Assembly (NCBI GenBank): GCA_946406015.1
Contig: CAMJJD010000002.1
Span: 4,787-68,786 of the forward strand
Source of the DNA: an uncultured Bacteroidales bacterium
GTDB taxonomy: Bacteria; Bacteroidota; Bacteroidia; Bacteroidales; P3
Length of the DNA stretch: 64,000 bases
Reading direction: 5' to 3'
Position 1 is the stretch's first letter. The number at the start of each line of letters is the position of its first letter. Positions 33,576-62,298 of the stretch are shown in pieces. Both the position numbers and the translations under genes were made by a program. The notes under the pieces were generated by a model that was given only the letters and a program-made list of their open reading frames with translations, made no database searches and was not told where the DNA came from.

Positions 33576-33912
33576 TAAATACATCGCGCACGACCAATTC
33601 CTCACCAGGGAAAATTTACCCCCACAACACCACCGCGTCCCCTCCGACCGAACTCCGACTACAGTCGGAGTAGTATCGGAGTAACCTCGGAGTAGCATCG
33701 GAGATGTATCGGAGATGATGCTATCTACCAGCGACTTACATTCTATTTGTATACACACACATGTGATAACCAAGTAGATACATTATCCACAAGACGCCTG
33801 GGGACCATCTTCAGCCACCTGGAGCGTCAGCGACCATCCATCGGGCACGACAGCAACGGAAATAGATTTTGCCCGTTCAAAATCACTAATTAAATCGTGT
33901 ACGATTTATTTC
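33576..33912. promoter_or_regulatory. cassette B: paralogue of cassette A upstream of upxY, with more degenerate bounding repeats
   Basis: Left site taaatacatcgcgcacga (33576-33593). The reverse complement of the right site (33895-33912) is gaaataaatcgtacacga, giving 14/18 matches. The internal layout matches cassette A. A near-consensus -7 box tagattttg lies at 33863-33871. Confidence 0.45.
33642..33714. repeat. seven 11-bp-phased TCGGAG half-sites (2 inverted + 5 direct)
   Basis: ctccga at 33642 and 33653. tcggag at 33665, 33676, 33687, 33698 and 33709. The central perfect palindrome is ctccgac-taca-gtcggag (33653-33670). Confidence 0.85.
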
Positions 33913-34025: not shown

Positions 34026-34188
34026 CAATTGGAACAATAGTATATAATCACACAATATACTACTGTCTCCCAACGGGTTGCGGCTCCCCTCCTGCGATAG
34101 GAGGGCCCGAAGGTCAGAACACTCCCCGGCTGACAAACCCCGGACGGACTCCATGCACACGCCTGGAGGAGGGGAGAGTATTGGGTTT

Positions 34189-34674
34189 ATGGAAAAACAC
34201 TGGTACGCATTCAAGGTCTATTACAATCACGTGCAGCCGCTTATCTCCGATTGCCTGGAGTCAGGGCTTGAGTTCTTCGCACCGACAGATGTCATCAAGT
34301 CATTGCTTTTTCTGCACTGCAGCGAGACCGACATGGCTCATTTCGTTGTGAACCACCATAGACAAGCATGGGTATACTACAACACCGAGCGCACTCAGGC
34401 TGCCGTGATTCCCGACCGTGAGATGGAAGTGTTCCGTTTCGTGGTCACGGCTGGACGCGACGGACTGGAGGTGCTGGGTGACGACCGACCCGAATACCAT
34501 GAGGGCGACCGCGTGGTGGTCACCGGCGGCCCCTTCAAAGGTGCTGAGGGACACATCAAACGCATCAAACGCGACCGCCGCCTGGTCGTCACCATCCGCG
34601 GCGTCGTCGCCGTCGCCACCACCTACATACACCCCAGCCTGCTCCGCAGAGTCGATGAGTCTATGAGTCATTGA
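34189..34674 (+). CDS. upxY: UpxY-family transcription antiterminator (NusG paralogue)
   Basis: Start at MEKHWYAFKVYY (typical UpxY/NusG NGN start). The C-terminal KOW motif is GDRVVVTGGPFKGAEGHIKRI. This is the first gene of a polysaccharide locus. Confidence 0.85.
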   Translation: MEKHWYAFKVYYNHVQPLISDCLESGLEFFAPTDVIKSLLFLHCSETDMAHFVVNHHRQAWVYYNTERTQAAVIPDREMEVFRFVVTAGRDGLEVLGDDRPEYHEGDRVVVTGGPFKGAEGHIKRIKRDRRLVVTIRGVVAVATTYIHPSLLRRVDESMSH

Positions 34675-34719
34675 GTCTGTGAGTCTATGAGTCTGTGAGT
34701 CAATGAGTGTATAAGTATA
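34656..34719. repeat. 8-bp tandem array TGAGTCNN x8, overlapping the last 6 codons and stop of upxY
   Basis: TGAGTC (or a decayed version of it) starts at 34656, 34664, 34672, 34680, 34688, 34696, 34704 and 34712, in exact 8-bp register. Confidence 0.85.
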
Positions 34720-34740
34720 TGAAACAACACGTTAGATGGC

Positions 34741-35100
34741 ATGAAAAGGGTTTTTGAAAATCTATTTGTATGGCAAGAAGCGAGAACTTTGGTGGGTGAA
34801 GTATATTCCATGCTGGATGGTTCGAGAGATTACGGGTTTAAAGACCAAATACAACGCGCTAGCGTGAGCATCATGAATAATATTGCCGAAGGAGCTGACT
34901 GTGGTTCTGATGCCAAATTCGTCAACTACCTTAACACCGCACGAGGTAGTTGCTCCGAAGTAAAAAGCACGCTTTATTTGTGTGAGGATTTAGGCTTATG
35001 TGGCAGTGAGAAGCGCACAGAATTGCAAGGGCGAGTAAACCAAATATCTTATGGGCTCGCTAAATTAATAGAGTCAATAAAACCCACTCCAGAGCGATAA
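34741..35100 (+). CDS. four-helix-bundle protein (23S rRNA intervening-sequence protein / Avd-like family)
   Basis: 119 aa. LFVWQEARTLVGEVY...QIQRASVSIMNNIAEG...ARGSCSEV is characteristic of this family. Confidence 0.85.
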   Translation: MKRVFENLFVWQEARTLVGEVYSMLDGSRDYGFKDQIQRASVSIMNNIAEGADCGSDAKFVNYLNTARGSCSEVKSTLYLCEDLGLCGSEKRTELQGRVNQISYGLAKLIESIKPTPER

Positions 35101-35114
35101 AGGCTCTATCCTCG

Positions 35115-35153
35115 AAGACTCATAGTCTTATTGTCTTAAAGACTCATAGTCTC
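35115..35153. repeat. two copies of AAGACTCATAGTCT, the inverse complement of the upstream TGAGTC array words
   Basis: aagactcatagtct occurs at 35115 and 35139. AGACTCATAG is the reverse complement of CTATGAGTCT at 34685-34694. Confidence 0.8.
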
Positions 35154-35163
35154 AAGGTCTATC

Positions 35164-36330
35164 ATGAAAAAAGGACTGTTTAAACTACAATACGAGCTTG
35201 ACAGCCGCTACACCGAGGCCGGCAGCGACCAAGGGGCCAAGCTGGATGTGCATGAAATCGACGACGAAAACGTACGTCGGTTCCTGTCCGACACGGCACA
35301 TCTGGGCTATAAGGAGACTGTCAAGTACCTGAAACGACGACAGGAACAGTCCGACAGCAGCATCGCCATCATCCCCTTCACCACCGCCACGCCCGAAGCA
35401 CTTGCCTACCGCCTCGAGAACCTCTCGCCACGCCTCACCTTCCTCTCCCGTCCCCTGAACACTGTCGAACGGCTCGACGAGATGCTGTATGCCGCCAACT
35501 GGCGGCTGCCCCAAGGCGCCTACCTATGTGCCCACTCGATGACGGCGGCGTTGAAACGCAACCTGACGATGGCGCGCTACCCGTGGGGCATCAACTACCT
35601 GATGGTGGCATGGGACTACGTGTGGCACCGCATGTGCCCGAAGATGAAGCTGACACGCCGGCTTTACTTCGCCGTCACCGGCGGCAAGAAGCGCACCATG
35701 AGCCGTGTGGAGATACTGGGACGTTTCTACCGTGCAGGTTTCGAGGTCGTCGACGAGCAGTTCCGCGAAGGCGAATTCTTCGTCACCGTCTGCAAAGTGG
35801 CCGAGCCCATCGACGACGAAGCCCCCACAGGGTCGCCCGTCATCCACCTACGCCGCATCGGCAAGGGTGGCAAGGAGATTGTGGTGCACAAGTTCCGCAC
35901 GATGTACACCTACTCGGAGTATGTGCAGCCCTACATCTACCACTATCAGAGCCTCGAGCGAGGCGGGAAATTCAAGGAGGACTACCGCATCAACCTCTGG
36001 GGACGTCTGCTGCGACGCATCTGGCTCGACGAGCTGCCCATGTTGTGGAACATGCTGCGCGGCGACCTCAAACTGGTGGGCGTGCGCCCGCTGAGCCGCC
36101 ATTATTTCAGCCTCTACACCCCTGAGATGCAGCAGCTGCGCATACGCACCAAGCCCGGCATGCTTCCGCCGTTCTACTATGACCAACATACCCCCGAGAC
36201 CATCGAGGAAGTCCAGGAGAGCGAACGCCGCTACCTGGAGGCCTATCTCGAGCACCCCTTCGCCACCGACTGGCGCTACTTCTGGGGCATCGTAGGCAAC
36301 ATCCTGCTTCGCCGCAAGCGGTCGAAATAG
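35164..36330 (+). CDS. sugar transferase (Bac_transf / phosphoglycosyl transferase catalytic domain) with atypical soluble N-terminal domain
   Basis: The C-terminal ~170 aa carry KFRTM, LDELPMLWNMLRGDLKLVGVRPL and KPGM motifs. The ~220-aa N-terminal part has no obvious re-entrant hydrophobic helix. Confidence 0.8.
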   Translation: MKKGLFKLQYELDSRYTEAGSDQGAKLDVHEIDDENVRRFLSDTAHLGYKETVKYLKRRQEQSDSSIAIIPFTTATPEALAYRLENLSPRLTFLSRPLNTVERLDEMLYAANWRLPQGAYLCAHSMTAALKRNLTMARYPWGINYLMVAWDYVWHRMCPKMKLTRRLYFAVTGGKKRTMSRVEILGRFYRAGFEVVDEQFREGEFFVTVCKVAEPIDDEAPTGSPVIHLRRIGKGGKEIVVHKFRTMYTYSEYVQPYIYHYQSLERGGKFKEDYRINLWGRLLRRIWLDELPMLWNMLRGDLKLVGVRPLSRHYFSLYTPEMQQLRIRTKPGMLPPFYYDQHTPETIEEVQESERRYLEAYLEHPFATDWRYFWGIVGNILLRRKRSK

Positions 36331-36505
36331 GAGCCCGCAAGCGGGCGACAGTCATTAGCCGTGGGCGTCAACCCACGGAACAAGAAACAAAGACGACACA
36401 TTGAGAAGCCCTGAAAGGGCGACAGTCATTAGCCGTGGGCGTGAGCCCACGGAAACAAAACAGAAAACTCCCTTTTTAAGAGCCCCGTAGGGGCGACAGA
36501 CAACT
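36331..36505. repeat. 2.5 copies of a 74-bp unit, each made of two hairpins joined by GACAGTCATTAG
   Basis: A 26-bp identical block occurs at 36343-36368 and 36417-36442. Hairpin a lies at 36333-36346, 36408-36420 and 36482-36494. Hairpin b lies at 36359-36378 and 36433-36452. Confidence 0.85.
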
Positions 36506-37937: not shown

Positions 37938-39056
37938 ATGACCGAGATGCAACTGGCATACAACATGCTGAAAGCTGCCCTGGACGGGAGCAAGCCCTGT
38001 CTAGGCATCGAACTGCCCGATACCAACCACTGGTGGAGCCTCTTCCGCCTGCTGCAACGCAACCGTGTGGCGGCACTATGCTATGAGGCGGCAGCGACTG
38101 CAGGAGCACCGCGCACAGTGTTGATGCCCTGGCTGGCCGAACATGAGAAGGCCGTCGACTGGCACCGCCACCAGCGACAGGTGCAGCAGGACATCATCGA
38201 CACCATGGCGCGTCACGGTATCGAGACGCTCGTGCTGAAGGGGACCCGCCTGGCGCAGTACTACCCGAGACCCGAGGAGCGCGAGTTCGGCGATCTGGAC
38301 CTCTACTTCTACGACCGGCACAAGGAAGCCGACCGAGTAGCACGAAATGTGTTGAAGGTAGAAGTCAGCAACGACGCCCACCACCACAGTAAATACAACT
38401 ACCGCGGCGTGACGGTGGAGAGCCACTACGACTTCGTCAACGTGCACTATCCACCCAGCAACCGCCGGTATGAAGCCTTGCTCAAAGAGTTAGTCGGTAA
38501 TAATAGCCTCACCGACTCAAAGTCTCAAAGTCTCAAAGTCTCAAGGACTCAAGGACTCAAAGACTCAACGGCTCAAGGTCAACTTTCAACTTTCGAAATT
38601 CTCTTCCTGCTCCGCCATATGGCCTGCCACTTCGCCTCGAGCCGTATCACCCTGCGCGAACTGACGGATTGGGCACTCACCTGCCAGGCGTTGCAAGGAG
38701 AGGTGGATTGGAAACGGGTACAACAGTCGGTCGACGACTACGGCATGAGGCCGTTTGCCAGCGCTCTGAACCTCATCGCAGAACGACAGCTGGGAATCGT
38801 CCTGCCATTGCAAAATGACAACAATCCGGATATTCTGGCCAACACGGCCTCTCTCGAGCGTGACATCGTCTACGGGAGCCCTGAGACCGACGACAAGAAT
38901 GCAGACGGCCTTGGCCGCCTCACATGGAAGATGCGCCGCTGGAACGCCCTCGCCTGGAAGCGCAAGATGGTCTACAGCGACAGCCCATCGAGCCTGATGC
39001 TGGCCAGCCTCACCTCCCACGCCGAGAAACCCCGCAGCATCCTGCACAAACAATAA
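37938..39056 (+). CDS. uncharacterised nucleotidyltransferase-family protein (NTP_transf_5-like) carrying an in-frame 8-bp-repeat insertion
   Basis: 372 aa. The GDLDLYF motif preceded by LVLKG is typical of the 'uncharacterised nucleotidyltransferase' family. The family call is by recall. Confidence 0.55.
   Translation: MTEMQLAYNMLKAALDGSKPCLGIELPDTNHWWSLFRLLQRNRVAALCYEAAATAGAPRTVLMPWLAEHEKAVDWHRHQRQVQQDIIDTMARHGIETLVLKGTRLAQYYPRPEEREFGDLDLYFYDRHKEADRVARNVLKVEVSNDAHHHSKYNYRGVTVESHYDFVNVHYPPSNRRYEALLKELVGNNSLTDSKSQSLKVSRTQGLKDSTAQGQLSTFEILFLLRHMACHFASSRITLRELTDWALTCQALQGEVDWKRVQQSVDDYGMRPFASALNLIAERQLGIVLPLQNDNNPDILANTASLERDIVYGSPETDDKNADGLGRLTWKMRRWNALAWKRKMVYSDSPSSLMLASLTSHAEKPRSILHKQ
38514..38585 (+). 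repeat. 8-bp tandem array (GACTCAAA/GTCTCAAA type, 8-9 units) inside the nucleotidyltransferase CDS
   Basis: Units start at 38514, 22, 30, 38, 46, 54, 62, 70 (and 78). The array encodes TDSKSQSLKVSRTQGLKDSTAQGQ. Confidence 0.85.
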
Positions 39057-39088
39057 TCTCAATCAAAACTAAAAAAACAAAAGAGCTC

Positions 39089-39199
39089 GAAATCTTGATG
39101 TCTCGACATCTCGATGTTTTTTCGACTTTTTTACTTTTCGTCTTTTAACTCAGCGACTAACACATTAACGCATTTACACATTAACACATTCATATAATG
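39089..39199 (+). repeat. ~14-unit 8-bp-periodic tract running into the wzt start codon; its last 40 bp are 38/40 identical to 62259-62298
   Basis: gaaatctt gatgtctc gacatctc gatgtttt ttcgactt ttttactt ttcgtctt (one 1-nt register slip) tttaactc agcgacta acacatta acgcattt acacatta acacattc atataATG. Confidence 0.8.
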
Positions 39200-40465
39200 G
39201 CCACTGCCATCGAATTCAATAATATCAGCAAAATCTACCGCCTGGGAATGGTCGGCACCGGCACCTTGGCGCACGACTTGAAGCGCTGGTGGACAATGAA
39301 CGTCCGCGGTAAGGAAGACCCTTACCTGACCATCGGTGAGACCAACGACCGCAGCACCAAGGGCGAGAGCGAGTACGTATGGGCCTTGAGGGATATCGAC
39401 TTCAAAGTGGAGCAGGGCGACGTGGTGGGCATCATCGGCAAGAACGGTGCCGGCAAGAGCACCCTGCTGAAGATTCTCTCCAAGGTCACTGCGCCCACCA
39501 CCGGCACCATCCGTGCCCGTGGACGTATCGGCAGTCTGTTGGAGGTCGGCACCGGCTTCCATCCCGAGATGACGGGAAGGGAGAACATCTACATGAACGG
39601 TGCCATCCTCGGCATGACCAAAGCCGAGATTACCAAAAAACTTGATGAGATTGTCGACTTCAGCGGCTGCGAGCGTTATATCGACACCCCCGTGAAGCGT
39701 TACAGCAGCGGCATGATGGTGCGCTTAGGTTTTGCCGTCGCCGCCCATCTCGACCCAGAAATATTGGTCGTCGACGAAGTCCTCGCCGTCGGCGACGCCG
39801 AATTCCAGAAGAAAGCCATCGGCAAGATGCAGGATGTGAGTAGAGGTGAAGGAAGGACGGTATTATTTGTGAGTCATAATATGGCAAGTATACGAGCTCT
39901 CTGCCACACTGGCATACTCCTGAATAATGGCCACATACAAACCATAGGCAAGATAAATGAAGTAGTAGAAACTTACATTGGAGGCAAGAAAGACAGCAAC
40001 AATTCTATTTACGAAGACATTGCCATTGCTCCAGGAAACGACAAGATCCGAATCCGCGAATTTTCCATAAACCCTATACATGGAAATATAATTGATGTAG
40101 AATCAGGCATTCATATAAATCTTGTTTTCAAAAACAACACCCCAAACATCATACTGGACACAACATTTGAATTACGTACTGCTGATGATGTAATTGTATT
40201 CCATACAGGGAAGGTGCTGAGTCCCGATGGTGATTCTCGAAAAGGGTTCTACCAAGTAAATTTTGACATCCCCGCCCACACCCTCAATACAGGAAACTAC
40301 ACATTACGAATATGGTTCGGACAGAATCAGAAATACATTCTTTGGGGAACCTATGAGCATTACTTCCATATAGAAAACACATACACTAACCAAGGTCGAA
40401 ACCTCAATAATCTTCCTGGAATAATGAAACCACAATTCGATATAAGCACTAGTTTTTTAGAGTAA
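39197..40465 (+). CDS. wzt: polysaccharide ABC exporter ATP-binding protein with C-terminal glycan-binding-type domain
   Basis: 422 aa with Walker A GKNGAGKST, signature YSSGMMVRL and Walker B LVVDEVLAVGD. The ~170-aa C-terminal extension is as in Wzt/TagH. Composition changes abruptly near 39840-39870. Confidence 0.88.
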   Translation: MATAIEFNNISKIYRLGMVGTGTLAHDLKRWWTMNVRGKEDPYLTIGETNDRSTKGESEYVWALRDIDFKVEQGDVVGIIGKNGAGKSTLLKILSKVTAPTTGTIRARGRIGSLLEVGTGFHPEMTGRENIYMNGAILGMTKAEITKKLDEIVDFSGCERYIDTPVKRYSSGMMVRLGFAVAAHLDPEILVVDEVLAVGDAEFQKKAIGKMQDVSRGEGRTVLFVSHNMASIRALCHTGILLNNGHIQTIGKINEVVETYIGGKKDSNNSIYEDIAIAPGNDKIRIREFSINPIHGNIIDVESGIHINLVFKNNTPNIILDTTFELRTADDVIVFHTGKVLSPDGDSRKGFYQVNFDIPAHTLNTGNYTLRIWFGQNQKYILWGTYEHYFHIENTYTNQGRNLNNLPGIMKPQFDISTSFLE

Positions 40466-40467
40466 CC

Positions 40468-40872
40468 ATGAAAGCGCATATTATAGAACTGCCCAAAATA
40501 CCCGACCATCGAGGCAATTTGACTTTTATTGAAGAGCAGCAGCACATTCCGTTTATAATTAAGCGTACATTTTGGATTTATGATGTCCCCGGAGGGGAGA
40601 ATCGCGGGGGACATGCTTACAAGGAAACGGAAGAATTTATTGTTGCCCTCAGCGGTAGTTTTACCGTACTATTAGACAATGGACACGAGCGGAAAGAGTT
40701 TCACCTAAACCGATCCTATTATGGGTTATATGTTCCAAAAATGATTTGGCGTGAAATGACTGATTTTTCCACCAATTCACTTGCGCTAGTATTGGCATCT
40801 ACCCACTACCTTACTGATGATTATATTCGAGATTATTCCATCTTCAAAAGAACATTAGATGACAACCATTGA
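40468..40872 (+). CDS. WxcM/FdtA-like cupin (sugar 3,4-ketoisomerase family), copy 1
   Basis: 134 aa. DHRGNLTFIE...YDVPGGENRGGHAYKE matches the FdtA/QdtA family. The His-x-Tyr variant (GGHAY) replaces the His-x-His motif. Confidence 0.78.
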   Translation: MKAHIIELPKIPDHRGNLTFIEEQQHIPFIIKRTFWIYDVPGGENRGGHAYKETEEFIVALSGSFTVLLDNGHERKEFHLNRSYYGLYVPKMIWREMTDFSTNSLALVLASTHYLTDDYIRDYSIFKRTLDDNH

Positions 40873-41278
40873 TGACTGCAAAATAATTACTCTAGACCGC
40901 CACCACAGCGACCGACAGGGGGATTTGTCCGTTGTAGAGAACAATATCAATATTCCATTTGAGTCAAAAAGAGTCTATTACCTATACGATGTTCCAGGAG
41001 GAGCGGAACGTGGCGGACATGCCCATAAGGCACTGCAACAACTGATTGTCGCAGCTAGCGGTAGTTTCACTGTATTGTTGGACGATGGCAAGACGAAACT
41101 TTCCGTCACATTAAATAGGCCTTATCAAGGACTATTCATAGTACCAGGCATATGGCGGGAGCTTGTTGATTTCTCGTCCGGGGCAATATGTTTAGTAATA
41201 GCCTCAGAGAAATATGATGAGTGTGATTATATAAGGGAATATGGTGAGTTTTTAACATTCAAGAAAAAATGGAACTAG
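40859..41278 (+). CDS. WxcM/FdtA-like cupin (sugar 3,4-ketoisomerase family), copy 2
   Basis: 139 aa with DRQGDLSVVE...YDVPGGAERGGHAHKA (canonical GGHAH). It overlaps the previous gene by 14 nt. Confidence 0.78.
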   Translation: MTTIDDCKIITLDRHHSDRQGDLSVVENNINIPFESKRVYYLYDVPGGAERGGHAHKALQQLIVAASGSFTVLLDDGKTKLSVTLNRPYQGLFIVPGIWRELVDFSSGAICLVIASEKYDECDYIREYGEFLTFKKKWN

Positions 41279-42051
41279 AAATGTTTACTGGGACAGGGGC
41301 AATAATCAGCCCATCTGCCATATTAGGAAAAAACGTCCGCATTGGCGACCGCACTATCATATACGACAGTGTGGAGATTGGAGACAACACAATTATTTGT
41401 AACGACTGCATAATTGGGGAACCTTTAAATGCATACTACAAAGAAACCGGCAATTACAATAATCCCCGAACAGTCATAGGAGCCGACTCGCTTATACGCA
41501 GCCATACCATTATCTATGCTGGGAATATAATAGGTGATCATTTTCAAACAGGGCATCGCGTTACATTGCGCGAAAATACAATACTCGGCTCACATTGCAG
41601 TTTAGGGACATTGGATGATATTCAAGGCCACTCTCGCTTTGGCAATTATTGTCGTTTACACAGCAACGTCCATATTGGCATGCATTCAGAGTTAGGGAAT
41701 TTCGTGTTTGTATATCCATATGTGGTTTTCACCAACGACCCCACTCCTCCTTCTGAGAATCTAATTGGGCCCTCCGTCGATGATTATACACAGATTGCCA
41801 CAGGCAGCATTTTACTTCCCGGCGTGAAGATTGGCAAACACTGCGTGATTGGTGCACACTCTCTTGTATCTAAAGATATTGATGATTACATGTTAGCGGT
41901 AGGCACACCTGCCAAATCTATCAAGAATGTGAGAGATATTATTGATCGATCAACAGGAAAGCCTCATTACCCATGGCCATATCATTTTGATAGAGGTATG
42001 CCATGGAATGAAACTGGATTTGAAGAATGGAAAAACATGTCAGAAAAATGA
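41269..42051 (+). CDS. left-handed beta-helix (hexapeptide-repeat) N-acetyltransferase, FdtC/QdtC-like
   Basis: 260 aa with repeated [LIV]G-x4 hexapeptides ([19 protein letters not shown]...). Confidence 0.78.
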
Positions 42052-43145
42052 TTTCTTTTCTACCATTAAAAAACATCACATTATCGTATAACGATGAAGT
42101 CGCAGAGGCGATAAAACGAGTAATAAATAGTGGCTGGTATATTCAAGGGCAAGAAAACACAACTTTTGAGCACAACTATGCCAAATATATCGGCTCCAGC
42201 CACTGCATTGGTTGCGGCAACGGATTAGATGCACTGACACTTATCTTGCGTGCATACAAGGAACTAAACATCATGCACGATGGGGATGAGATTATTGTAC
42301 CAGCAAACACATATATCGCTTCAATTCTTGCAATTACTGAGAACAATTTGATTCCCGTGCTAGTAGAACCTCGGGGCGAGACACTCGAAATTGACGACAG
42401 TCTCATTGAAAAGCATATTACCGACCGCACCAAAGCAATCATGATAGTGCATCTCTATGGCCGATGCGCCTATACAAACAACATCGGGGATTTGTGCCAA
42501 AAACACAATCTTAAACTGATTGAGGATAACGCACAAGCGCACGGCTGTCGTTTCGGCACAAAACGTACTGGCTCACTCGGTGACGCTGCCGGACATTCGT
42601 TCTATCCTGGTAAAAACCTTGGCGCCTTGGGAGATGCTGGAGCAGTTACAACAGATGACGAAGAATTGGCAACATGTGTCCGTGCATTGGCCAACTATGG
42701 GAGTTCTCAAAAGTATGTATTCGATTATTGTGGTCGTAACAGTCGACTTGACGAAATCCAAGCCGCAGTATTAAATGTAAAGCTAAGGCATCTGGATGAC
42801 GACAATTCCAAAAGGCAACAAGTGGCGAACTATTACTATAACAACATATCTCATCCAGAAATCAAACTGCCATCACAATTGCCCGATGAAAACAATGTCT
42901 ACCATCTCTTTCCCATTTTCTGCACAAAGCGTGATGAACTACAAAATTATCTTACCCAAAATGAGGTGCAAACCCTGATACACTATCCTATTCCCCCGCA
43001 CAAACAAAAATGTTATAATGGTTGGAACAACATCTCACTTCCAATTACCGAAAAGATTCACAAAGAAGAGCTATCACTACCTATAAGTCCAGTGATATCT
43101 ACAGACAATGTAAAACGGGTTGTTGAATTACTAAACGCATTCTAA
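42048..43145 (+). CDS. DegT/DnrJ/EryC1/StrS family aminotransferase (dTDP-3-keto-6-deoxyhexose 3-aminotransferase, FdtB/QdtB-like)
   Basis: The PLP-lysine context [15 protein letters not shown] is typical of DegT. The ATG at 42048 overlaps the upstream stop (ATGA). The longer ORF starts at 42027. Confidence 0.88.
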
Positions 43146-43166
43146 AGAAGGCCCCAAGAACATAAA

Positions 43167-44189
43167 GTGAAAGAACGAGATTCAAATATAGAATTACTTC
43201 GCATAGTAGCCACATTATTCATCCTGATTGTTCATTGCAACGGATGGTTCTTGCGTGATTGGGGTGAGATATCTTGGCTATCTGGTGGATACGCGGTATG
43301 CGCAGCCAGAATAACCATTCAAAATATTACATGTATCGGTGTTATTCTTTTCGTCCTTATTTCAGGATTCTATGGCATACGTCCTAAATTAAAGTCATTA
43401 GTCAACCTTTTCACACTTCTCCTGTTCTTCTATGTCGGCAGCTATCTTCTTTGCTGCCATTGTGGCCAGGACGTTTTTTCATGGAAAGGCCTTCTCAAGA
43501 ACGTTCTTGCATTCTCAAGAGAAAATTGGTTTATTAATTGCTACCTGTTTCTAATACTCCTCTCTCCAATTCTAAATGCTTTTATGGAAAGAACCACGGC
43601 CCGCAATGCGCGAATATATCTAAGCGTATTCCTTATCTGCGCTTTTTATTGGGGCTGTGTTAATCCATCAATTTATTTCTATTTTAACAGTGGTTATAGT
43701 GTAACTACCATGGTTCTGATATACCTGATTGGCAGGTATATGAGCCTGCACGTTAAAGAGCAAATCACAAAACGGAAATACAGCCACCTTATTTTTGCAT
43801 ATATTGTTTCTCTTCTAATATTGATAGGGTTCTTTTGCCTCGAGCAAAAAACGGAGAGGCCTCTTACTTGCTATTGCAGTCCATTCAGTATTGCTTCTGC
43901 TGTATGCTTCTTTTGGCTTTTTTACAGAATGCCTATTCCAACCAATCCGATTGTGAACTGGATAGGGAAATCATGTCTCGCATGTTTTATATTACATACA
44001 TGTCAACCTATCATAGGATGGTTAGCTTCAAAAGACGTCTACACTTTCATGAATTATCCATTCCTTCATTATTGCGGAAAAATGGTATTAATAATTGGGG
44101 GGATATTTATTATTTCAATCATGCTGGATAAAATCAGGGGCCTTGTCTTTTACCCAATTATTAATCTGGCTGGAAAAATCAAAAAATGA
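43167..44189 (+). CDS. acyltransferase family 3 membrane O-acyltransferase
   Basis: 340 aa, polytopic, with N-terminal NIELLRIVATLFILIVHC typical of acyltransferase_3. GTG start. AT-rich. Confidence 0.75.
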   Translation: MKERDSNIELLRIVATLFILIVHCNGWFLRDWGEISWLSGGYAVCAARITIQNITCIGVILFVLISGFYGIRPKLKSLVNLFTLLLFFYVGSYLLCCHCGQDVFSWKGLLKNVLAFSRENWFINCYLFLILLSPILNAFMERTTARNARIYLSVFLICAFYWGCVNPSIYFYFNSGYSVTTMVLIYLIGRYMSLHVKEQITKRKYSHLIFAYIVSLLILIGFFCLEQKTERPLTCYCSPFSIASAVCFFWLFYRMPIPTNPIVNWIGKSCLACFILHTCQPIIGWLASKDVYTFMNYPFLHYCGKMVLIIGGIFIISIMLDKIRGLVFYPIINLAGKIKK

Positions 44190-44208
44190 ATTAACCTTTT
44201 TCTAATTT

Positions 44209-45132
44209 ATGATGACCCCTCCAAAACCACTGGTATCAGCCTACGTGATAACCTATAATTCATCTAAAACAATAGTTGAGACTCTAGATAGTATATACCA
44301 TCAAACCTATCAGAACATAGAACTAATAATAAGTGACGATTGCTCGGCAGATAATACAGTCGATCTCTGTAAAAAATGGATAGCCGAAAACGATAGTCGC
44401 TTCACGCAAACTGAGATTATCGAATCTTCTACCAATACAGGAATTGCGGCCAATTGCAATCGTGCAGAGGATATATGCCATGCCAAATGGGTTAAACCTC
44501 TCGCTGGTGACGATATCCTATTACCTGATTGCATTGACACATATATGAATTTCGTCAAGGGCCAGGATGACTTGCCTTGTATCTTCAGCAGAGTACAATG
44601 CTTTGATGCTGATACCGGAAAAAACATTCATACCAACACTCCCTTTGATTATTCCTTCTTTTCAAAAACAAGAGAACAACAGCTTTCCCGTTTAATATAT
44701 GATGGCAATTGCATACCTGCAGCATCCGCATTTATCAACATACATCTTTTACGCAAACTCAGCATACGAAACGACGAACGGATTCCTCTACTCGAAGACT
44801 GGCCTAAATGGATAAATATTCTTAACGCCGGGTATCACCTTGACTTTCTAGATAAAATACTTGTGAAATACCGTATGAATAGTGGGACCTCAACATCAGG
44901 ACTTAATCCTGATTTTTACCACTCCATGCAGTTATTTACACTTCTTTATAAATATCCCGAATGGAAAAAACGTGACCCTGAAGATGCGTACCGCCGACTA
45001 AGACTCTGTATGGGGGACGACAAGCCTCCCCTCGGTGTCAGAGATCGCAGAAATTTACAGGTTGGGCGTTTTATTCTCAAACCCATATATTATTTTAAGG
45101 ATTATTTTCGACAAATAAAACGCCAGCGATGA
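44209..45132 (+). CDS. glycosyltransferase family 2
   Basis: VSAYVITYNSSKTIVETLDSIYHQTYQNIELIISDDCSADNT plus DD/ED motifs. Confidence 0.85.
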   Translation: MMTPPKPLVSAYVITYNSSKTIVETLDSIYHQTYQNIELIISDDCSADNTVDLCKKWIAENDSRFTQTEIIESSTNTGIAANCNRAEDICHAKWVKPLAGDDILLPDCIDTYMNFVKGQDDLPCIFSRVQCFDADTGKNIHTNTPFDYSFFSKTREQQLSRLIYDGNCIPAASAFINIHLLRKLSIRNDERIPLLEDWPKWINILNAGYHLDFLDKILVKYRMNSGTSTSGLNPDFYHSMQLFTLLYKYPEWKKRDPEDAYRRLRLCMGDDKPPLGVRDRRNLQVGRFILKPIYYFKDYFRQIKRQR

Positions 45133-46112
45133 TATCGGTTGCCCTTTGTACATATAATGGAGCTCTCTATATCCAAGAGCAATTGAATTCAATTTTAAGC
45201 CAGAGCCTCCCCGTAAACGAGATTGTTATCTGTGATGATGGAAGCACCGATGACACACTGCAGATTTTGAAAAAAATTCAAAAGGAACACCCCTCAATAA
45301 TAAGCTTACATATCAATGATGGGCACTTGGGGGTTGCAAAGAATTTCGAAAAAGCTCTATCTTTGTGTAACGGAGATATAGTTTTTTTGTCAGACCAAGA
45401 CGATATCTGGTATCCCAATAAGGTTAGTACATTAGTTGAAATCCTTAGCCATGCCCCCTCTACTTCGTTGGTTTTTTCTAATGCCGGACTTATCGATTCT
45501 GAAGGAAAGTATGTATCAGACTCCATCGATTTTTTTACACAGGCGTTCCCTTCTAAAAACCAAATAATGTTTGATGTCGGCTTAGCCATGGAAATGGCGT
45601 TATCTGAATGCTTTGTTCTCGGCTCCTCAATGGCCTTACGTCATTCCTTCTTAAAAAAAGTACTTCCTTTCAAAAATGAACTATCGGAGAGTTTCAATCA
45701 TGATGATATTCTATTGTTCTATGCTTCATTAACGAACAATATAAAATACACCAAGGAACGGCTTTTCAACTATCGAATACATGAAAAGCAGACGGCAGGG
45801 AGAATCAATCCATCTTCCACCCACCAAGGGAATAATGTATACGATAAAGAAATATGGCCTACTCCGATACTTGTCAATCAGATTGAGGATGACTTACTGA
45901 AAAAAAGAGTCAACTATATGAAGACGAGGAATCAGTTACTACATAACCCATGGTCTCCTTTTATTATCATTAGAATCAATAAATTATATCGTCAATTGTA
46001 TCCTTCTACCTATAGGCAAATAATGTTATTTGATATTAGGCGCTCCTTATACCATAGTATTTATAGATTATGTAAAAGGGTAGAAAAAAAAATAAAACGC
46101 CGTTATGTTTAA
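45129..46112 (+). CDS. glycosyltransferase family 2
   Basis: ISVALCTYNGALYIQEQLNSILSQS...VICDDGSTDDT and LSDQDDIW. The start overlaps the upstream stop. Confidence 0.85.
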   Translation: MISVALCTYNGALYIQEQLNSILSQSLPVNEIVICDDGSTDDTLQILKKIQKEHPSIISLHINDGHLGVAKNFEKALSLCNGDIVFLSDQDDIWYPNKVSTLVEILSHAPSTSLVFSNAGLIDSEGKYVSDSIDFFTQAFPSKNQIMFDVGLAMEMALSECFVLGSSMALRHSFLKKVLPFKNELSESFNHDDILLFYASLTNNIKYTKERLFNYRIHEKQTAGRINPSSTHQGNNVYDKEIWPTPILVNQIEDDLLKKRVNYMKTRNQLLHNPWSPFIIIRINKLYRQLYPSTYRQIMLFDIRRSLYHSIYRLCKRVEKKIKRRYV

Positions 46113-47016
46113 GAAAATAAAACGATACCTACATTCTCCCTACTACGAAATAGGGCAAAACATTATGAATCGATGGCCTCGCATTATGTCTGACAAGTGG
46201 TACATTAAAACCCAGTGGCTACGAGAATGTGGATACAGGCTTGATCTCGAAAATCCACGTACCTTCAATGAAAAAATACAATGGCTCAAATTATATAATC
46301 GCAATCCTCTCTATACACTCTTGGTTGACAAATACCGGGTCAAAGAATGGGTGGCACAAAAGATTGGCTCCCAATACATAGTCCCGACATTGGCAACATA
46401 TAAATCTGTCCAGGAAATAACTCCAGAATCTCTGCCATTACAATTTGTACTGAAATGCAATCACGACAGCGGAGGCGTTATCGTATGTCGTGACAAAGCG
46501 TCATTTGACTTTAAAAAAGCAATGGCGATGCTTGACAGTCATCTAAAAAACAACCACTATTACTATGCACGAGAATGGGCCTATAAGCATGTAAAGCCGA
46601 TGCTCTTTGCCGAACAATATCTCGAAGACTCTGCCTCTGAAGACGCTCTGGTTGACTACAAGTGGTTCTGTTTCAACGGAGAACCAAAGATAATGTATCT
46701 ATGCAGAGAGAGAGGAAGTCATCCTGTCACTGCTTTCTTCGACATGGAATACCGACACCTCCCTTTCACAATGGCCAATCCTATCGCGACAATATTACCC
46801 GAGAAACCAGCACAATTTGAAAAGATGAAGCAGTTAGCAGCCACACTATCGCAAGGGATTCCCCATGTCAGGGTAGATTTCTATCTTGCTAAGAATCAAA
46901 TCTACTTTGGCGAGATGACATTCTATGATTCTGCCGGTTACGGGCCATTTAATCCTCCTGTCTGGAACTATACTTTGGGAGAAATGTTAGTATTGCCATC
47001 TCGCCACAAAATGTAA
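46105..47016 (+). CDS. ATP-grasp fold amidoligase (TupA-like) family protein
   Basis: 303 aa. FNEKIQWLKLYNRNPLYTLLVDKYRVKEWV and KCNHDSGG are typical of the TupA-like ATP-grasp family. Confidence 0.72.
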   Translation: MFKKIKRYLHSPYYEIGQNIMNRWPRIMSDKWYIKTQWLRECGYRLDLENPRTFNEKIQWLKLYNRNPLYTLLVDKYRVKEWVAQKIGSQYIVPTLATYKSVQEITPESLPLQFVLKCNHDSGGVIVCRDKASFDFKKAMAMLDSHLKNNHYYYAREWAYKHVKPMLFAEQYLEDSASEDALVDYKWFCFNGEPKIMYLCRERGSHPVTAFFDMEYRHLPFTMANPIATILPEKPAQFEKMKQLAATLSQGIPHVRVDFYLAKNQIYFGEMTFYDSAGYGPFNPPVWNYTLGEMLVLPSRHKM

Positions 47017-47022
47017 CGGATC

Positions 47023-47904
47023 TTGCCTGCTCTATCCCCAACATATAGCATTATCATCCCCACCCGCAATCGCGCACAGATGGTGTGTCGCTGCATTGAC
47101 AGCGTACGAAACCAGACCTACAATCAATGGGAATGTTTGGTGGTAGATGATCACTCGACAGACAATACCTACGATGTTGTACGACGTTATTCCCAGGAAG
47201 ACTCACGTATCAAATACCTGCATAACGATCGAATGCCTGGAGCTCAGGGTGCTAGAAACACCGGTATACGACAAGCTTGCGGCCAATGGGTTTTGCTGCT
47301 CGACTCCGACAATGCAATAGAGCTCAACTATCTAGCCAAGATATCACAATACGGTATTACGCATCCAAATGTTGACGTAATAACAAACTATATCCGTGTC
47401 ATACAACCTGACGGATCTGAAACCCACACACAATGGAAGACTGATGGAAACATCCTATATGACCTCCTGTGCGGAAAAATCTATGTTGACAACAGCTCCG
47501 CTTGTGTCCGCAAGACAATATTAGACAAGATTGGGCTTCTCGACGAGCGATGCCCTTCCTATCAAGAATGGGATACTCATATCCGAATTGCACAAATTGG
47601 GGAATATGGTTGTATCGAAGAATACTTGACACAATATCACGAACACACAAAAGAACGCGTGTCGCGCCGGAACGATACCGTCTGGGCACATGGATTATAT
47701 GTGCTGCGGAAACACCGAAAACTGTGGCAGAAAACAGCAGGGAAGGACATCTATACACGGATGCTACTACAAGTCTACGAAGAGAGGAAATCTCTATCAA
47801 TGCCACGCCAATTATTGGTAACATTCATCGTTGTCTGGCTAAGTCCAAAACTAGGTAAACAGTTGGTAAAAAGAAAAAACAAATGCCTCCCATTGTTTCC
47901 ATAG
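47023..47904 (+). CDS. glycosyltransferase family 2
   Basis: YSIIIPTRNRAQMVCRCIDSVRNQTYNQWECLVVDDHSTDNT and LLDSDN. Non-ATG (TTG) start in the ORF track, so the exact start is uncertain. Confidence 0.8.
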   Translation: MPALSPTYSIIIPTRNRAQMVCRCIDSVRNQTYNQWECLVVDDHSTDNTYDVVRRYSQEDSRIKYLHNDRMPGAQGARNTGIRQACGQWVLLLDSDNAIELNYLAKISQYGITHPNVDVITNYIRVIQPDGSETHTQWKTDGNILYDLLCGKIYVDNSSACVRKTILDKIGLLDERCPSYQEWDTHIRIAQIGEYGCIEEYLTQYHEHTKERVSRRNDTVWAHGLYVLRKHRKLWQKTAGKDIYTRMLLQVYEERKSLSMPRQLLVTFIVVWLSPKLGKQLVKRKNKCLPLFP

Positions 47905-48755
47905 TTCTCCCCTGCTATAACGGAGCAACTTTTCTTGCACAATCCATAGCTAGTGTCATTGCCCAGACCTTTACCGACTGGGAGCTCATCATTGTCAACG
48001 ACTGTTCCAAAGATAACTCACTGGAGATCATGCAGCAGTATGCCGAGAAAGACAGCCGCATACGCATCATCAACAACGAGCACAACATCAAACTCCCTGG
48101 AGCGTTGAACAGAGGCTTCCGAGAAGCCAAGGGCAAATACCTCACATGGACCTCTCACGACAACCGCATGGCGCCCAACATGCTGGAGGAGTTCGTATCC
48201 TATCTGGACAACAACCCCGACAAAGGGCTCGTTACCGCATGCTATGCAGCCTTCAGCCTCAAGACTGGCGAAACGCTCTACGAGGTGCACCATCCCGACC
48301 CGCAGTTACATCTTCCCCTCTTCAACTGCGTATGCTATGCTTTCATGTACCGTCGCGAGGTGCTGGAAACCGTCGGCGATTACGACACCACGCTCTTCCT
48401 CGTGGAAGACTATGACTATTGGGTGCGCATCTGGCAAAAATATCCTGTTGGTAAGATATACAAGGTGCTCTACTATACCGGCGTTGGCGACGATACGCTG
48501 ACACTCTCCCGCAAAAAAGAGATTGCAGAAAAGCTATTGGAGATGCGCCTGCGGTATTTCTCAGACTTTGACAAAGCATTGAACGGACATCCCGACTTGC
48601 AACGCCGCCTCTATAATAGCATTGCCGATAATATGCATGGTTGGCCACGACTGAGATTCACGTTCCAAAGAGGTCTTAAATACAGCACCTTTTACTGGCT
48701 CTACTATCGGCCAAAGAAAGTCCTAAAGAAGCTAATCAAGAAACCAAGGAACTAA
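47883..48755 (+). CDS. glycosyltransferase family 2
   Basis: VSIVLPCYNGATFLAQSIASVIAQTFTDWELIIVNDCSKDNS. Confidence 0.85.
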   Translation: MPPIVSIVLPCYNGATFLAQSIASVIAQTFTDWELIIVNDCSKDNSLEIMQQYAEKDSRIRIINNEHNIKLPGALNRGFREAKGKYLTWTSHDNRMAPNMLEEFVSYLDNNPDKGLVTACYAAFSLKTGETLYEVHHPDPQLHLPLFNCVCYAFMYRREVLETVGDYDTTLFLVEDYDYWVRIWQKYPVGKIYKVLYYTGVGDDTLTLSRKKEIAEKLLEMRLRYFSDFDKALNGHPDLQRRLYNSIADNMHGWPRLRFTFQRGLKYSTFYWLYYRPKKVLKKLIKKPRN

Positions 48756-59858: not shown

Positions 59859-59883
59859 CAATCCTGATTTCCATTTGATTCCC

Positions 59884-61604: not shown

Positions 61605-61730
61605 AAAAAACAATCAAAAAGGATAACCGGAAGCTCCGTAAGTCGAGCGCAGTGTTATGCTAGCTTGAACAATGCCGAGATGAAGGAGCGATGACAAAGT
61701 CAATTAACCGAATTAAACCGAATACTCTTT

Positions 61731-61877
61731 GACCTTTCGACTCTTCAACTCCACAGAAACTCTATCAGAACAAAAAGAACAAACAGATTTTTTCAATCAG
61801 ATTGTAAAAGATTTTAAAAGAAACATGATGTCTCGTTGTCTTTTTGACCTTTCGACTCTTCAACTCCACAGAAACTC
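61731..61877 (+). repeat. 32-bp perfect direct repeat (period 115 bp), each copy followed by related A-rich words
   Basis: gacctttcgactcttcaactccacagaaactc occurs at 61731-61762 and 61846-61877. Confidence 0.85.
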
Positions 61878-61976
61878 AATCAAAACCAAAAGAACAGAAA
61901 AGAAATTCGTTGGATTCGTGTGATTCGTGGTCGTTTATATTTCCATCAGATTTGAAAAGATTGTAAAAGAAAACTC

Positions 61977-62107
61977 TTCGACTTTTTGACCTTTCGACTC
62001 TCCGACTTTTCGTCTCTTTGACTCTGCTACTCGTAGTCTCGTTGTCTCACAGACTCAAGGACTCACAGACTTATAGACTCAGCAACTTTTCGACTCTTCG
62101 TCTCACA
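61977..62107 (+). repeat. 8-bp-phased tract, ~16 units, core G(A/T)CT
   Basis: The core G (or a substitute base) falls at 61980, 88, 96, 62004, 12, 20, (28), 36, 44, 52, 60, 68, 76, (84), 92, 100, in exact register. Confidence 0.85.
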
Positions 62108-62138
62108 TTAATCTCAATCAGATTGTAAAAGAAAACTC

Positions 62139-62298
62139 TTCGACCTTTCGTCTTTTTGACTCTTCGACTCAAAGACTCAATGTCTCAATGTCTCATTGAC
62201 TCACAGACTCATAGTCTTTTTGACTTTTCGACTCTTTAACCTTTTGACTTTTCGACTTACACATTAACGCATTTACACATTAACGCATTCATAAAATG
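62139..62298 (+). repeat. 8-bp-phased tract, 20 units, ending on the ATG of the GT-C gene
   Basis: ttcgacct ttcgtctt tttgactc ttcgactc aaagactc aatgtctc aatgtctc attgactc acagactc atagtctt tttgactt ttcgactc tttaacct tttgactt ttcgactt acacatta acgcattt acacatta acgcattc ataaaATG. Confidence 0.9.

What the first reader, a model, noticed from the sequence alone, without database searches (positions are those of the whole stretch)
34656..35160. IVS-like cassette: a four-helix-bundle (23S-IVS/Avd family) ORF flanked by inverted 8-bp word arrays between upxY and the initiating transferase
Upstream there are eight in-register TGAGTCNN units (34656-34719). They even encode the last residues and the stop of UpxY. 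Downstream, AAGACTCATAGTCT occurs twice (35115 and 35139). CTATGAGTCT (34685-34694) and AGACTCATAG (35116 and 35140) are exact reverse complements, so a transcript could pair the flanks and loop out the 360-nt ORF. Established knowledge: members of this protein family were first found inside 23S rRNA intervening sequences, where flanking complementary arms form a stem that RNase III cleaves. The same family includes the Avd accessory protein of diversity-generating retroelements. Here the same ORF-in-a-stem design sits in an mRNA leader position where upxZ would normally be. No reverse transcriptase is present in the window.
Basis: partly seen in the sequence, partly recalled or inferred. Interest (0 to 1): 0.65.

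Follow-up and report, generated by a model that had tools for sequence, protein, structure and literature searches.

The report
Repeat-flanked four-helix-bundle gene cassette
A small foreign gene of the family first found inside ribosomal-RNA intervening sequences sits between two capsule-operon genes. It is bracketed by mirror-image arrays of an 8-base repeat, and the same design recurs around this gene family across many gut Bacteroidia, which points to an undescribed family of small mobile cassettes.

Summary
Nine 8-nt GAGTCNNT units (34649-34720, six exact TGAGTC) run into a 119-aa PF05635/TIGR02436 ORF (34741-35100). About six units of the reverse complement (35115-35160) end 3 nt before the transferase ATG.

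The design is general. In 47 of 84 related ORFs from Bacteroidia genomes, the two flanks are inverted copies of one 7-8-nt tandem word. That compares with 10 of 375 other genes. The word differs between cassettes, even within one genome, but the two arms of a cassette match.

In 69 of 76 related loci, upxY abuts the transferase (often an ATGA overlap), with no upxZ. The cassette is therefore an insertion of about 514 nt. It has 43% GC against about 59% in the flanks, and it is better conserved than its flanks. In relatives, ORF plus arms occur as one unit in unrelated contexts, and the ORF is under strong purifying selection.

RNA contigs show co-transcription. The arms can form a 31-bp long-range helix. 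RNase III cleavage could not be tested, and the mismatches between arms show no RNA-specific signature.

Verdict: this is an IVS-type mobile cassette in an mRNA. The design is shown; the processing step is inferred.

The parts
34189..34674 (+). upxY (UpxY-family NusG-like antiterminator). Its last 8 codons and its stop (34649-34674) are encoded by the upstream array.
   Evidence: NF033644 4.2e-29 and KOW. Relatives end ...LLRKVEE*, whereas the window ends ...LLRRVDESMSH*.
34649..34720 (+). Upstream arm: nine 8-nt units GAGTCNNT, six with exact TGAGTC and the last two degenerate.
   Evidence: Unit number varies between strains in steps of 8 nt: -8 at 34664, +24 at 34686.
34721..34740 (+). Short A/T-rich leader between the arm and the start codon.
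   Evidence: Sequence. The median distance from arm to ATG is 29 nt in 47 cassettes.
34741..35100 (+). 119-aa four-helix-bundle protein gene (23S_rRNA_IVP / S23p / Avd family).
   Evidence: PF05635 1.5e-28; TIGR02436 1.4e-27. PDB 2GSC (XCC0516) 2.3e-11. dN/dS is 0.03-0.11 in 11 relative pairs. pI is 5.5.
35115..35160 (+). Downstream arm: about six 8-nt units of the reverse-complement word (AGACTCAT-type). It ends 3 nt before the transferase ATG.
   Evidence: A +8-nt unit variant occurs at 35121 in other strains.
34682..35160 (+). Predicted long-range RNA helix: 34682-34722 pairs with 35120-35160 (31 bp with small internal loops) and loops out the ORF.
   Evidence: This is a prediction only; no end-mapping data were available.
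34650..35163 (+). The inserted segment as a whole (about 514 nt), relative to empty sites where the upxY stop and the transferase start overlap or abut.
   Evidence: Empty sites such as L092, L094 and L096 read ...GTGGAAGAATGAAAAAAGG. 69 of 76 relatives have a gap of 80 nt or less. GC is 0.43 against 0.58-0.60 in the flanks. Identity to L001 is 96.9%, against 89.5% and 64% for the flanks.
35164..36330 (+). Initiating sugar-phosphate transferase (Bac_transf), the gene downstream of the insertion.
   Evidence: PF02397 3.7e-23.
38496..38587 (+). Solo octamer array of the same word class (GACTCAAA/GTCTCAAA), in frame inside the NTP_transf_5 gene.
   Evidence: It is absent from about 40 homologues.
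61973..62289 (+). Further arrays of the same word class, all in GACTC orientation, filling an intergenic region with no four-helix-bundle ORF.

Best explanation
Segment 34650-35163 is one copy of a family of small gene cassettes that are widespread in Bacteroidia. No sigma-70-type promoter was found inside it. Each cassette has four parts in order: a purine-rich array of a 7-8-nt tandem repeat, a short A/T-rich leader, a roughly 120-aa four-helix-bundle gene (PF05635, the S23p/Avd family), and the same array in reverse complement.

**Shown.**
- The cassette is an insertion at the point where upxY's stop and the transferase's start overlap in relatives.
- It is foreign in composition and better conserved than its flanks.
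- In relatives, arms plus ORF occur as one unit in unrelated gene contexts.
- The protein is under strong purifying selection.
- The arrays gain and lose whole units.
- RNA-derived contigs run from upxY through the cassette into the transferase.

**Inferred.**
- In the polycistronic transcript the two arms pair into an imperfect helix of about 31 bp that loops out the ORF. This is the design of the S23p-bearing intervening sequences of 23S rRNA.
- As there, RNase III probably cuts the stem. That would separate the four-helix-bundle message from the upxY and transferase messages, which keep base-paired ends.
- The likeness of the two arms is maintained at the DNA level, not by RNA-level compensatory selection. 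The arms act as element ends, are homogenised by slippage and by conversion between arms, and are inherited as part of the mobile unit.
- The enzyme that moves the cassette is unknown and is not encoded in the window.
For: - **Family and anatomy:**
- **Generality.** Own flanks are inverted copies (score >= 30) in 47 of 84 cassettes. The figures are 14 of 84 for direct orientation, 4 of 84 for flanks paired across loci, and 10 of 375 for other genes.
- **Array location.** 35 of 59 strong lag-8 arrays lie within 150 nt of such an ORF.
- **Arm covariation.** Different words occur in one genome, for example L034, L046 and L058, and at one orthologous site (window, L089, L146, L112). Both arms always match.
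- **Insertion.** Empty sites occur in 69 of 76 relatives.
- **Same-species polymorphism.** L084-L087 (UpxY 97%, transferase 95%) lack the ORF here and carry another cassette one gene further on. L089 carries a cassette only 57% identical here.
- **Unit mobility.** Homology between L036 and L042/L039 (89-93% aa, unrelated neighbours) starts and stops at the outer edges of the arrays. L028 against L049 shows the same.
- **Foreign composition and conservation:**
- **Selection:** dN/dS 0.03-0.11.
- **Orientation.** The cassette is co-oriented with the upstream gene in 72 of 84 cases.
- **Co-transcription.** The X10 contig spans 34201-35700, X26 spans 34840-35222, and X27/X28 span 34641-34814.
- **Stem:**
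- **Precedent.** The Coxiella IVS is 428 nt with a 28-bp terminal stem cut by RNase III, an S23p ORF, and tandem GACAGAT heptamers of variable number (PMC4990558).
Against: - No read-level RNA data were available, so cleavage in the arms is untested. The RNA contigs show only that an unprocessed form exists.
- Mismatches between arms are not biased towards G:U: 53 against 55 A:C-type, plus 129 transversions. Sense duplexes are no more stable than antisense ones. Nothing therefore shows selection on the RNA helix.
- The helix is imperfect. Its longest uninterrupted run is 9 bp.
- About 44% of related ORFs do not reach the inverted-flank threshold, and a few have direct instead of inverted arrays.
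- Arrays of the same kind occur without any ORF.
- No target-site duplication and no candidate mobilising enzyme were found.
- Most comparison sequences are metagenome-assembled, and many cassettes are orthologous copies, so the counts are not independent events.
Confidence: 0.6

Rival explanations
1. The arms matter only as DNA. They are the terminal inverted repeats, built of sub-terminal short repeats, of a non-autonomous transposon-like element moved in trans. The RNA helix is incidental and is not processed.
For: - Homology between copies ends exactly at the array edges.
- There is no G:U bias and no sense/antisense difference.
- About two thirds of arrays share an RG[AT]C core, and the upstream arm is purine-rich in 36 of 43.
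- Arms persist beside a decayed ORF (L112) or next to each other with no ORF (L084).
- Another cargo, GxxExxY, occurs in the same frame of arrays.
Against: - No target-site duplication is seen at four filled sites compared with many empty ones.
- No transposase or recombinase is found in the window.
- Several unrelated words coexist in one genome, which is awkward for one sequence-specific enzyme.
- The homologous rRNA elements are demonstrably cut at the stem (PMC4990558).
Confidence: 0.3
2. The arrays are binding sites for the toroidal four-helix-bundle oligomer itself, with periodic short motifs as in TRAP-type RNA binding. Binding would give autoregulation of translation or help the cassette's own maintenance or mobility.
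For: - The arrays are periodic 7-8-nt motifs of 4-9 units with a semi-conserved core directly upstream of the ORF start.
- The closest solved relative is the Xanthomonas campestris protein XCC0516 (2GSC). The Coxiella paper describes the X. campestris S23p structure as a homopentameric toroid.
- The ORF is the only conserved cargo and is under purifying selection.
Against: - These proteins are near neutral (median pI 7.7; window 5.5), not basic like nucleic-acid binders such as Avd.
- The words differ widely between cassettes whose proteins are 50-65% identical.
- Arrays also occur around another cargo and with no cargo.
Confidence: 0.12
3. Nothing specific is present. Octamer arrays are a generic intergenic filler of this genome, and the complementarity of the two flanks is a by-product of two arrays that happen to point in opposite directions.
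For: Arrays of the same word class lie elsewhere in the window without the ORF, and all of those point the same way.
Against: - Inverted own-flank matches occur in 56% of cassettes, against 2.7% of other genes and 5% of cross-locus pairs.
- Arms covary with different words within one genome.
- Arrays are concentrated next to these ORFs.
- Arms travel with the ORF.
Confidence: 0.03
4. The ORF is an orphan Avd of a diversity-generating retroelement, or the segment is a phase-variable invertible switch.
For: PF05635 includes Avd (PMC10053308). Inverted repeats flank the segment.
Against: - No reverse transcriptase occurs among the 41 ORFs scanned.
- No TR/VR-type repeat occurs in 26-44 kb.
- The protein is acidic.
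- Only one orientation appears in contigs of 8 runs, with no strand-switch joints.
- The orientation relative to the upstream gene is fixed in 72 of 84 cases, and the arm polarity is fixed in 36 of 43.
Confidence: 0.03

Closest known systems
S23p-encoding intervening sequences (IVS) of 23S rRNA: Coxiella burnetii helix 45, and Leptospira, Brucella, Xanthomonas and Haemophilus (PMC4990558)
   Same: - The ORF belongs to the same protein family (PF05635).
- The element size is similar (428 nt against about 514 nt).
- Terminal inverted repeats enclose the ORF in a stem.
- Short tandem repeats lie next to the ORF, and their copy number varies between strains (GACAGAT heptamers there; 7-8-nt words here).
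- Both are regarded as selfish or possibly mobile.
   Different: - This cassette sits between protein-coding genes of a polysaccharide operon, not in rRNA.
- The whole arm is a tandem array.
- Bacteroidia genomes can carry several copies, each with a different word (up to three seen in one MAG).
- The ORF is under strong purifying selection here, whereas it is decaying and probably untranslated in Coxiella.
- RNase III excision is shown there and untested here.
Correia / other bacterial MITEs that are co-transcribed and cleaved by RNase III (from my own knowledge of the Neisseria literature; not checked here)
   Same: - A small element with terminal inverted repeats is inserted in intergenic spacers of operons.
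- It is transcribed with its neighbours.
- The arms fold into a hairpin that can be an RNase III substrate and change mRNA fate.
- Derivatives without an ORF exist (L084).
   Different: - MITEs carry no gene.
- Their repeats are unique sequences, not tandem arrays.
- They make target-site duplications, which were not seen here.
Avd, the accessory protein of diversity-generating retroelements
   Same: The protein superfamily and four-helix-bundle fold are the same (PMC10053308).
   Different: There is no reverse transcriptase and no template/variable repeats nearby. The protein is not basic. The cassette is flanked by inverted arrays instead.
Integron gene cassettes
   Same: Both are short single-gene units without a detected promoter of their own, read from the host operon's transcript. 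Both are bounded by recombination-type repeats whose structure is conserved while their sequence varies.
   Different: The repeats lie on both sides and are tandem arrays, not a single attC. No integrase or attI is present. The cassettes are scattered singly between housekeeping and polysaccharide genes, not stacked in an array.

Membership tests
IVS-type S23p element (as defined on 23S rRNA) | ORF of the PF05635 / S23p four-helix-bundle family inside the element | tested here: met
   PF05635 1.5e-28; TIGR02436 1.4e-27; PDB 2GSC 2.3e-11
IVS-type S23p element (as defined on 23S rRNA) | Terminal inverted repeats able to form a stem that encloses the ORF | tested here: met
   44-nt arms at 77% complementarity; 31 long-range pairs in the MFE fold; duplex -54.4 against -23.4 +/- 3.8 kcal/mol
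IVS-type S23p element (as defined on 23S rRNA) | Located inside a 23S rRNA gene (helix 25 or 45) | tested here: not met
   It lies between upxY and a sugar transferase. No rRNA match in 33.5-35.5 kb.
IVS-type S23p element (as defined on 23S rRNA) | Excised from the transcript by RNase III at the stem | not testable with these tools
   Only assembled contigs of RNA runs were available. They show the unprocessed form and no ends.
IVS-type S23p element (as defined on 23S rRNA) | Short tandem repeats beside the ORF with strain-variable copy number (Coxiella) | tested here: met
   8-nt units, with -8, +24 and +8 nt variants in other strains. The comparison is in PMC4990558.
Diversity-generating retroelement (Avd role) | Adjacent reverse transcriptase | tested here: not met
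   No RT domain in the 41 ORFs scanned across the window
Diversity-generating retroelement (Avd role) | Template/variable repeat pair nearby | tested here: not met
   No long near-identical direct repeat in 26-44 kb
TIR transposon / MITE | Terminal inverted repeats, and copies in unrelated genomic contexts | tested here: met
   L036 against L042/L039 and L028 against L049: homology is limited to arms plus ORF
TIR transposon / MITE | Target-site duplication at the insertion | tested here: not met
   Filled sites (window, L089, L146, L112) compared with empty sites show no duplicated target. About 10 nt of the upxY end are replaced.
TIR transposon / MITE | A cognate transposase, in the element or elsewhere | tested here: inconclusive
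   None is present in the cassette or the window. The rest of the genome was not available.
Invertible phase-variation switch | Both orientations present in a population | tested here: not met
   Only one orientation appears in contigs of 8 DNA/RNA runs. Fixed polarity in 36 of 43 and co-orientation in 72 of 84.

The most novel reading that the evidence does not exclude
The rRNA intervening sequences and these operon-borne cassettes are one superfamily of autonomous mini-elements. In it, the four-helix-bundle pentamer acts on its own flanking 7-8-nt repeat arrays, as DNA or RNA, to move or maintain the element. The fold-back stem makes insertion harmless: it lets the host transcript be cut, or the flanking stop and start codons be brought together, at the base of the stem. 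That would give a function to a protein family that has had none since 1993, and would define a new mode of mobility without a classical transposase.
Probability: 0.2. Interest if true: 0.88.

Novelty: new variant of a known kind. Interest (0 to 1): 0.72.

Why it matters
The origin of rRNA intervening sequences has been open since about 1990, and so has the role of the S23p/four-helix-bundle ORF that many of them carry. If the design seen here is general, the same element type lives in ordinary operons of abundant gut and rumen Bacteroidia, in several copies per genome, with an intact gene under selection.

That makes the question testable by ordinary genetics and RNA end-mapping. Three things could be measured: whether the arms are cut, whether the protein binds them, and whether the cassette moves.

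It also matters for annotation and assembly of polysaccharide loci. The cassettes and their arrays rewrite the last codons of the upstream gene and can supply the first codons of the downstream gene. They break ancestral translational coupling, such as the ATGA overlap of upxY and the transferase. They are also polymorphic between near-identical strains.

Tried and rejected
- **Rfam.** At permissive threshold on 33.5-35.5 kb and 61.4-62.4 kb there was nothing relevant.
- **PADLOC.** The ORF has no match to defence families.
- **Viral contigs.** A scan for relatives of the ORF found none.
- **Exact look-up.** The window's protein is not on record. A 97% relative gave three short contigs with the same arrangement.
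- **RNA evidence for processing.** All 22 RNA runs found are held only as assembled contigs. Their breaks at the arrays cannot be told from assembly breaks at repeats.
- **G:U against A:C mismatch test, and sense against antisense duplex energies.** Both tests for RNA-level selection were negative.
- **Target-site duplication.** I looked at filled and empty sites and saw none.
- **Telomere-like or templated addition of the repeats.** I set this aside because related words occur in both polarities relative to the element, for example L039 against L035.
- **Target-derived words.** At two sites the word resembles the native end of the upstream gene. Elsewhere the arms travel with the ORF, so this is left unexplained.
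- **Sigma-70 and terminator scan.** Nothing on the + strand inside the cassette. The tool does not model Bacteroidetes promoters.
- **Literature.** Seven full-text searches found no description of repeat-flanked four-helix-bundle cassettes outside rRNA.
Full report
**1. The observation**

- From 34649 there are nine in-register 8-nt units: GAGTCGAT GAGTCTAT GAGTCATT GAGTCTGT GAGTCTAT GAGTCTGT GAGTCAAT GAGTGTAT AAGTATAT.
- The UpxY reading frame runs into them and stops at TGA 34672-34674.
- Downstream of the 360-nt ORF (34741-35100), AAGACTCATAGTCT occurs at 35115 and 35139.
- The array CTCATAGT CTTATTGT CTTAAAGA CTCATAGT CTCAAGGT ends 3 nt before the transferase ATG at 35164.

This is far beyond chance.
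- The two-unit pattern, with up to one mismatch, is found 23 times in the window against 0.30 expected.
- A period of 8 is the only strong short period in the 64 kb.

**2. Context in the window**

- 34189-34674 is a UpxY-family antiterminator (NF033644).
- The ORF is a PF05635/TIGR02436 four-helix-bundle protein.
- 35164-36330 is a Bac_transf initiating transferase.
- An ABC-2 permease, an NTP_transf_5 protein and an ABC ATPase follow.
- The rest of the window is polysaccharide biosynthesis. None of the 41 ORFs scanned has a reverse transcriptase, transposase or integrase domain.
- No TR/VR-like repeat lies in 26-44 kb.
- The cassette has 43% G+C, against 58-60% in its neighbours.

**3. The arrays are not private to this spot**

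Arrays of the same word class occur in three other places, none with a four-helix-bundle ORF:
- 38496-38587;
- 39086-39196;
- across about 320 nt at 61973-62289.

All of these point in the GACTC direction. The array upstream of the ORF is the one that points the other way.

**4. The design is general**

A scan of one genome per species with the protein returned 80 loci (L004-L083). Nearly all are Bacteroidales; a few are other Bacteroidia, and identity is 48-65%. For 84 ORFs I aligned the 110 nt upstream with the reverse complement of the 110 nt downstream.

| Comparison | Score >= 30 |
|---|---|
| Own flanks, inverted | 47 of 84 |
| Own flanks, direct | 14 of 84 |
| Upstream flank against another locus's downstream flank | 4 of 84 |
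| Flanks of other genes in the same loci | 10 of 375 |

- The flanks are tandem arrays, with a period of 8 nt in 28 cassettes and 7 nt in 16.
- 35 of 59 strong period-8 arrays in these loci lie within 150 nt of such an ORF.
- The word differs from cassette to cassette. Examples are GAAGTGAT, CGAGACTT, AAGTCAAC, GACAACA/GACAACG, TGTTGATA and AAGACCAC.
- The word differs even between cassettes of one genome (L034, L046 and L058 of one MAG). Even so, the two arms of each cassette carry the same word.
- The upstream arm is the purine-rich strand in 36 of 43 cases.
- About two thirds of arrays share an RG[AT]C core.

**5. It is an insertion, and polymorphic**

A metagenome scan with UpxY gave 80 loci.
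- In 76 both genes are present. In 57 the gap is at most 30 nt, and in 12 more it is at most 80 nt. The stop and start often overlap, as in GTGGAAGAATGAAAAAAGG. This lineage therefore has no upxZ.
- The window's cassette replaces about 10 nt of the native upxY end and stops just before the native ATG.
- Three other loci have a cassette at the same junction, each with its own word and matching arms. L089 has GAGTGGAA with a protein 57% identical. L146 has GAGTGGCT with a protein 64% identical. L112 has GAGTGACT with a decayed ORF.
- Contigs of the same species (L084-L087; UpxY 97%, transferase 95%) keep the first array units. In place of the ORF they have opposed arrays and a non-coding element of about 95 nt, which the window carries at 61618-61712. 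They also carry a different cassette one gene further on.
- Against L001, the cassette is 96.9% identical, the upxY end 89.5% and the transferase start 64%.

**6. Arms and ORF move together**

- L036 shares a cassette (89-93% aa) with L042 and L039, but its neighbouring genes are unrelated. Nucleotide homology runs from 73-76 nt before the ATG to about 50-106 nt after the stop, depending on the pair. That is exactly from the outer edge of one array to the outer edge of the other.
- L028 against L049 behaves the same way.
- In other pairs (L009 and L010) only the ORF is shared.
- No target-site duplication is visible.

**7. The protein**

- The closest solved structure is the Xanthomonas campestris protein XCC0516 (2GSC, 2.3e-11). 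The Coxiella paper describes the X. campestris S23p as a homopentameric toroid.
- dN/dS between relatives is 0.03-0.11 in eleven pairs. That includes copies in different contexts.
- The proteins are near neutral (median pI 7.7; window 5.5).
- The ORF has no PADLOC match and no relatives in viral contigs.
- The ORF is co-oriented with the upstream gene in 72 of 84 cases.

**8. RNA**

- The MFE fold of 34640-35170 pairs 34682-34722 with 35120-35160. That makes 31 bp with small loops. The core 34688-34701 has pairing probability of about 0.9.
- Contigs from metatranscriptomes run through the arm boundaries. X10 covers 34201-35700, X26 covers 34840-35222, and X27/X28 cover 34641-34814. The cassette is therefore transcribed with its neighbours.
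- Contigs cannot show cleavage, and DNA carry-over cannot be excluded.
- The same runs show whole-unit length variants: -8, +24 and +8 nt.
- Two tests for selection on the RNA helix were negative. Mismatches between arms are 53 G:U-type, 55 A:C-type and 129 transversions. The sense duplex is the more stable one in only 21 of 47 cassettes.

**9. What is known**

- The Coxiella burnetii IVS is a 428-nt element in 23S rRNA helix 45.
  - It carries an S23p ORF.
  - It has tandem GACAGAT heptamers of strain-variable number before the ORF.
  - The authors recall older proposals that such elements are transposon remnants or mobile elements (PMC4990558).
- PF05635 also covers Avd of diversity-generating retroelements (PMC10053308).
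- Seven full-text searches found no account of repeat-flanked cassettes of this family outside rRNA. The library is incomplete, so this is absence of evidence only.

**10. Mechanism**

Three things are shown.
- The segment is a discrete, foreign cassette of the IVS type, polymorphic between strains and inserted at a gene junction.
- It is transcribed with the operon.
- It belongs to a large family in which arms and ORF form one unit and the arms covary.

Three things are inferred.
- The arms pair in the transcript, and RNase III cuts the stem as in rRNA.
- The arms are kept alike by DNA-level processes. These could be slippage within arrays, conversion or selection between arms, and inheritance as element ends.
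- Movement depends on a factor not encoded in the window.

The main rival is that the RNA helix is incidental and the arms serve only as DNA ends. The negative RNA-selection tests favour this rival. The experimentally proven behaviour of the homologous rRNA elements, and the coexistence of many words in one genome, favour a structure-based role. The rivals of chance, an orphan Avd and an invertible switch are contradicted by the controls above.

**11. Limits**

- Most comparison sequences are metagenome-assembled.
- Many cassettes are orthologous copies, so the counts are not independent events.
- Thresholds were set by me.
- No experiment or read-level RNA data bear on processing or on mobility.

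Noticed in passing
window 38496-38587: An 84-nt octamer array (GACTCAAA/GTCTCAAA units) lies in frame inside the NTP_transf_5 gene (37938-39056). It adds about 28 residues where about 40 homologues read LLKELAPS-PTFEVLFLLRHM with no insert.
   Followed up: yes
window 39086-39196 and 62242-62289: Octamer arrays end in the same motif TTACACATTAACGCATT...CATTCATA(T/A)AATG directly before the start codons of the ABC ATPase gene (39197) and of ORF 62296. This may be a shared translation-initiation leader.
   Followed up: no
window 61600-62290; L084:1796-1892: An intergenic stretch of about 690 nt is built of octamer arrays, all in one orientation. It also holds three copies of AATCAGATTGTAAAAGAAAACTCTTCGAC and a conserved non-coding element of about 95 nt (61618-61712). 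In sister-strain contigs that element occupies the upxY-transferase gap in place of the four-helix-bundle ORF. There is no Rfam match and only a weak predicted fold.
   Followed up: partly
window 36343-36490; L085:4985-5490: Two 74-nt tandem copies of a GC-rich hairpin element fill the transferase-permease gap. In the sister strain the same gap holds another four-helix-bundle cassette. Its downstream array is read in frame as the N-terminus of the ABC-2 permease, whose ATG overlaps the end of the cassette ORF.
   Followed up: partly
L054:5870-6268: A GxxExxY protein gene (TIGR04256, 1.7e-37) sits between inverted arrays of an ACGCAAAT-type word. So the same array frame carries at least one other small cargo. 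L062:5424-5780 is a divergent four-helix-bundle ORF between AATTGACA arrays.
   Followed up: partly
window 40000-48000 and 58800-60000: Blocks of 35-45% G+C lie within a locus of 55-62% G+C. They hold glycosyltransferase and sugar-modifying genes, which suggests horizontally exchanged parts of the polysaccharide cluster.
   Followed up: no
window 34177-34270: Contigs of two metatranscriptome runs join 34177 to 34270 with other letters in between. This is probably a variant upxY leader or start from another strain or paralogue.
   Followed up: no
window 33665-33717: An 11-nt tandem repeat (TCGGAGTAGCA, 4.5 copies) lies in the region upstream of upxY.
   Followed up: no
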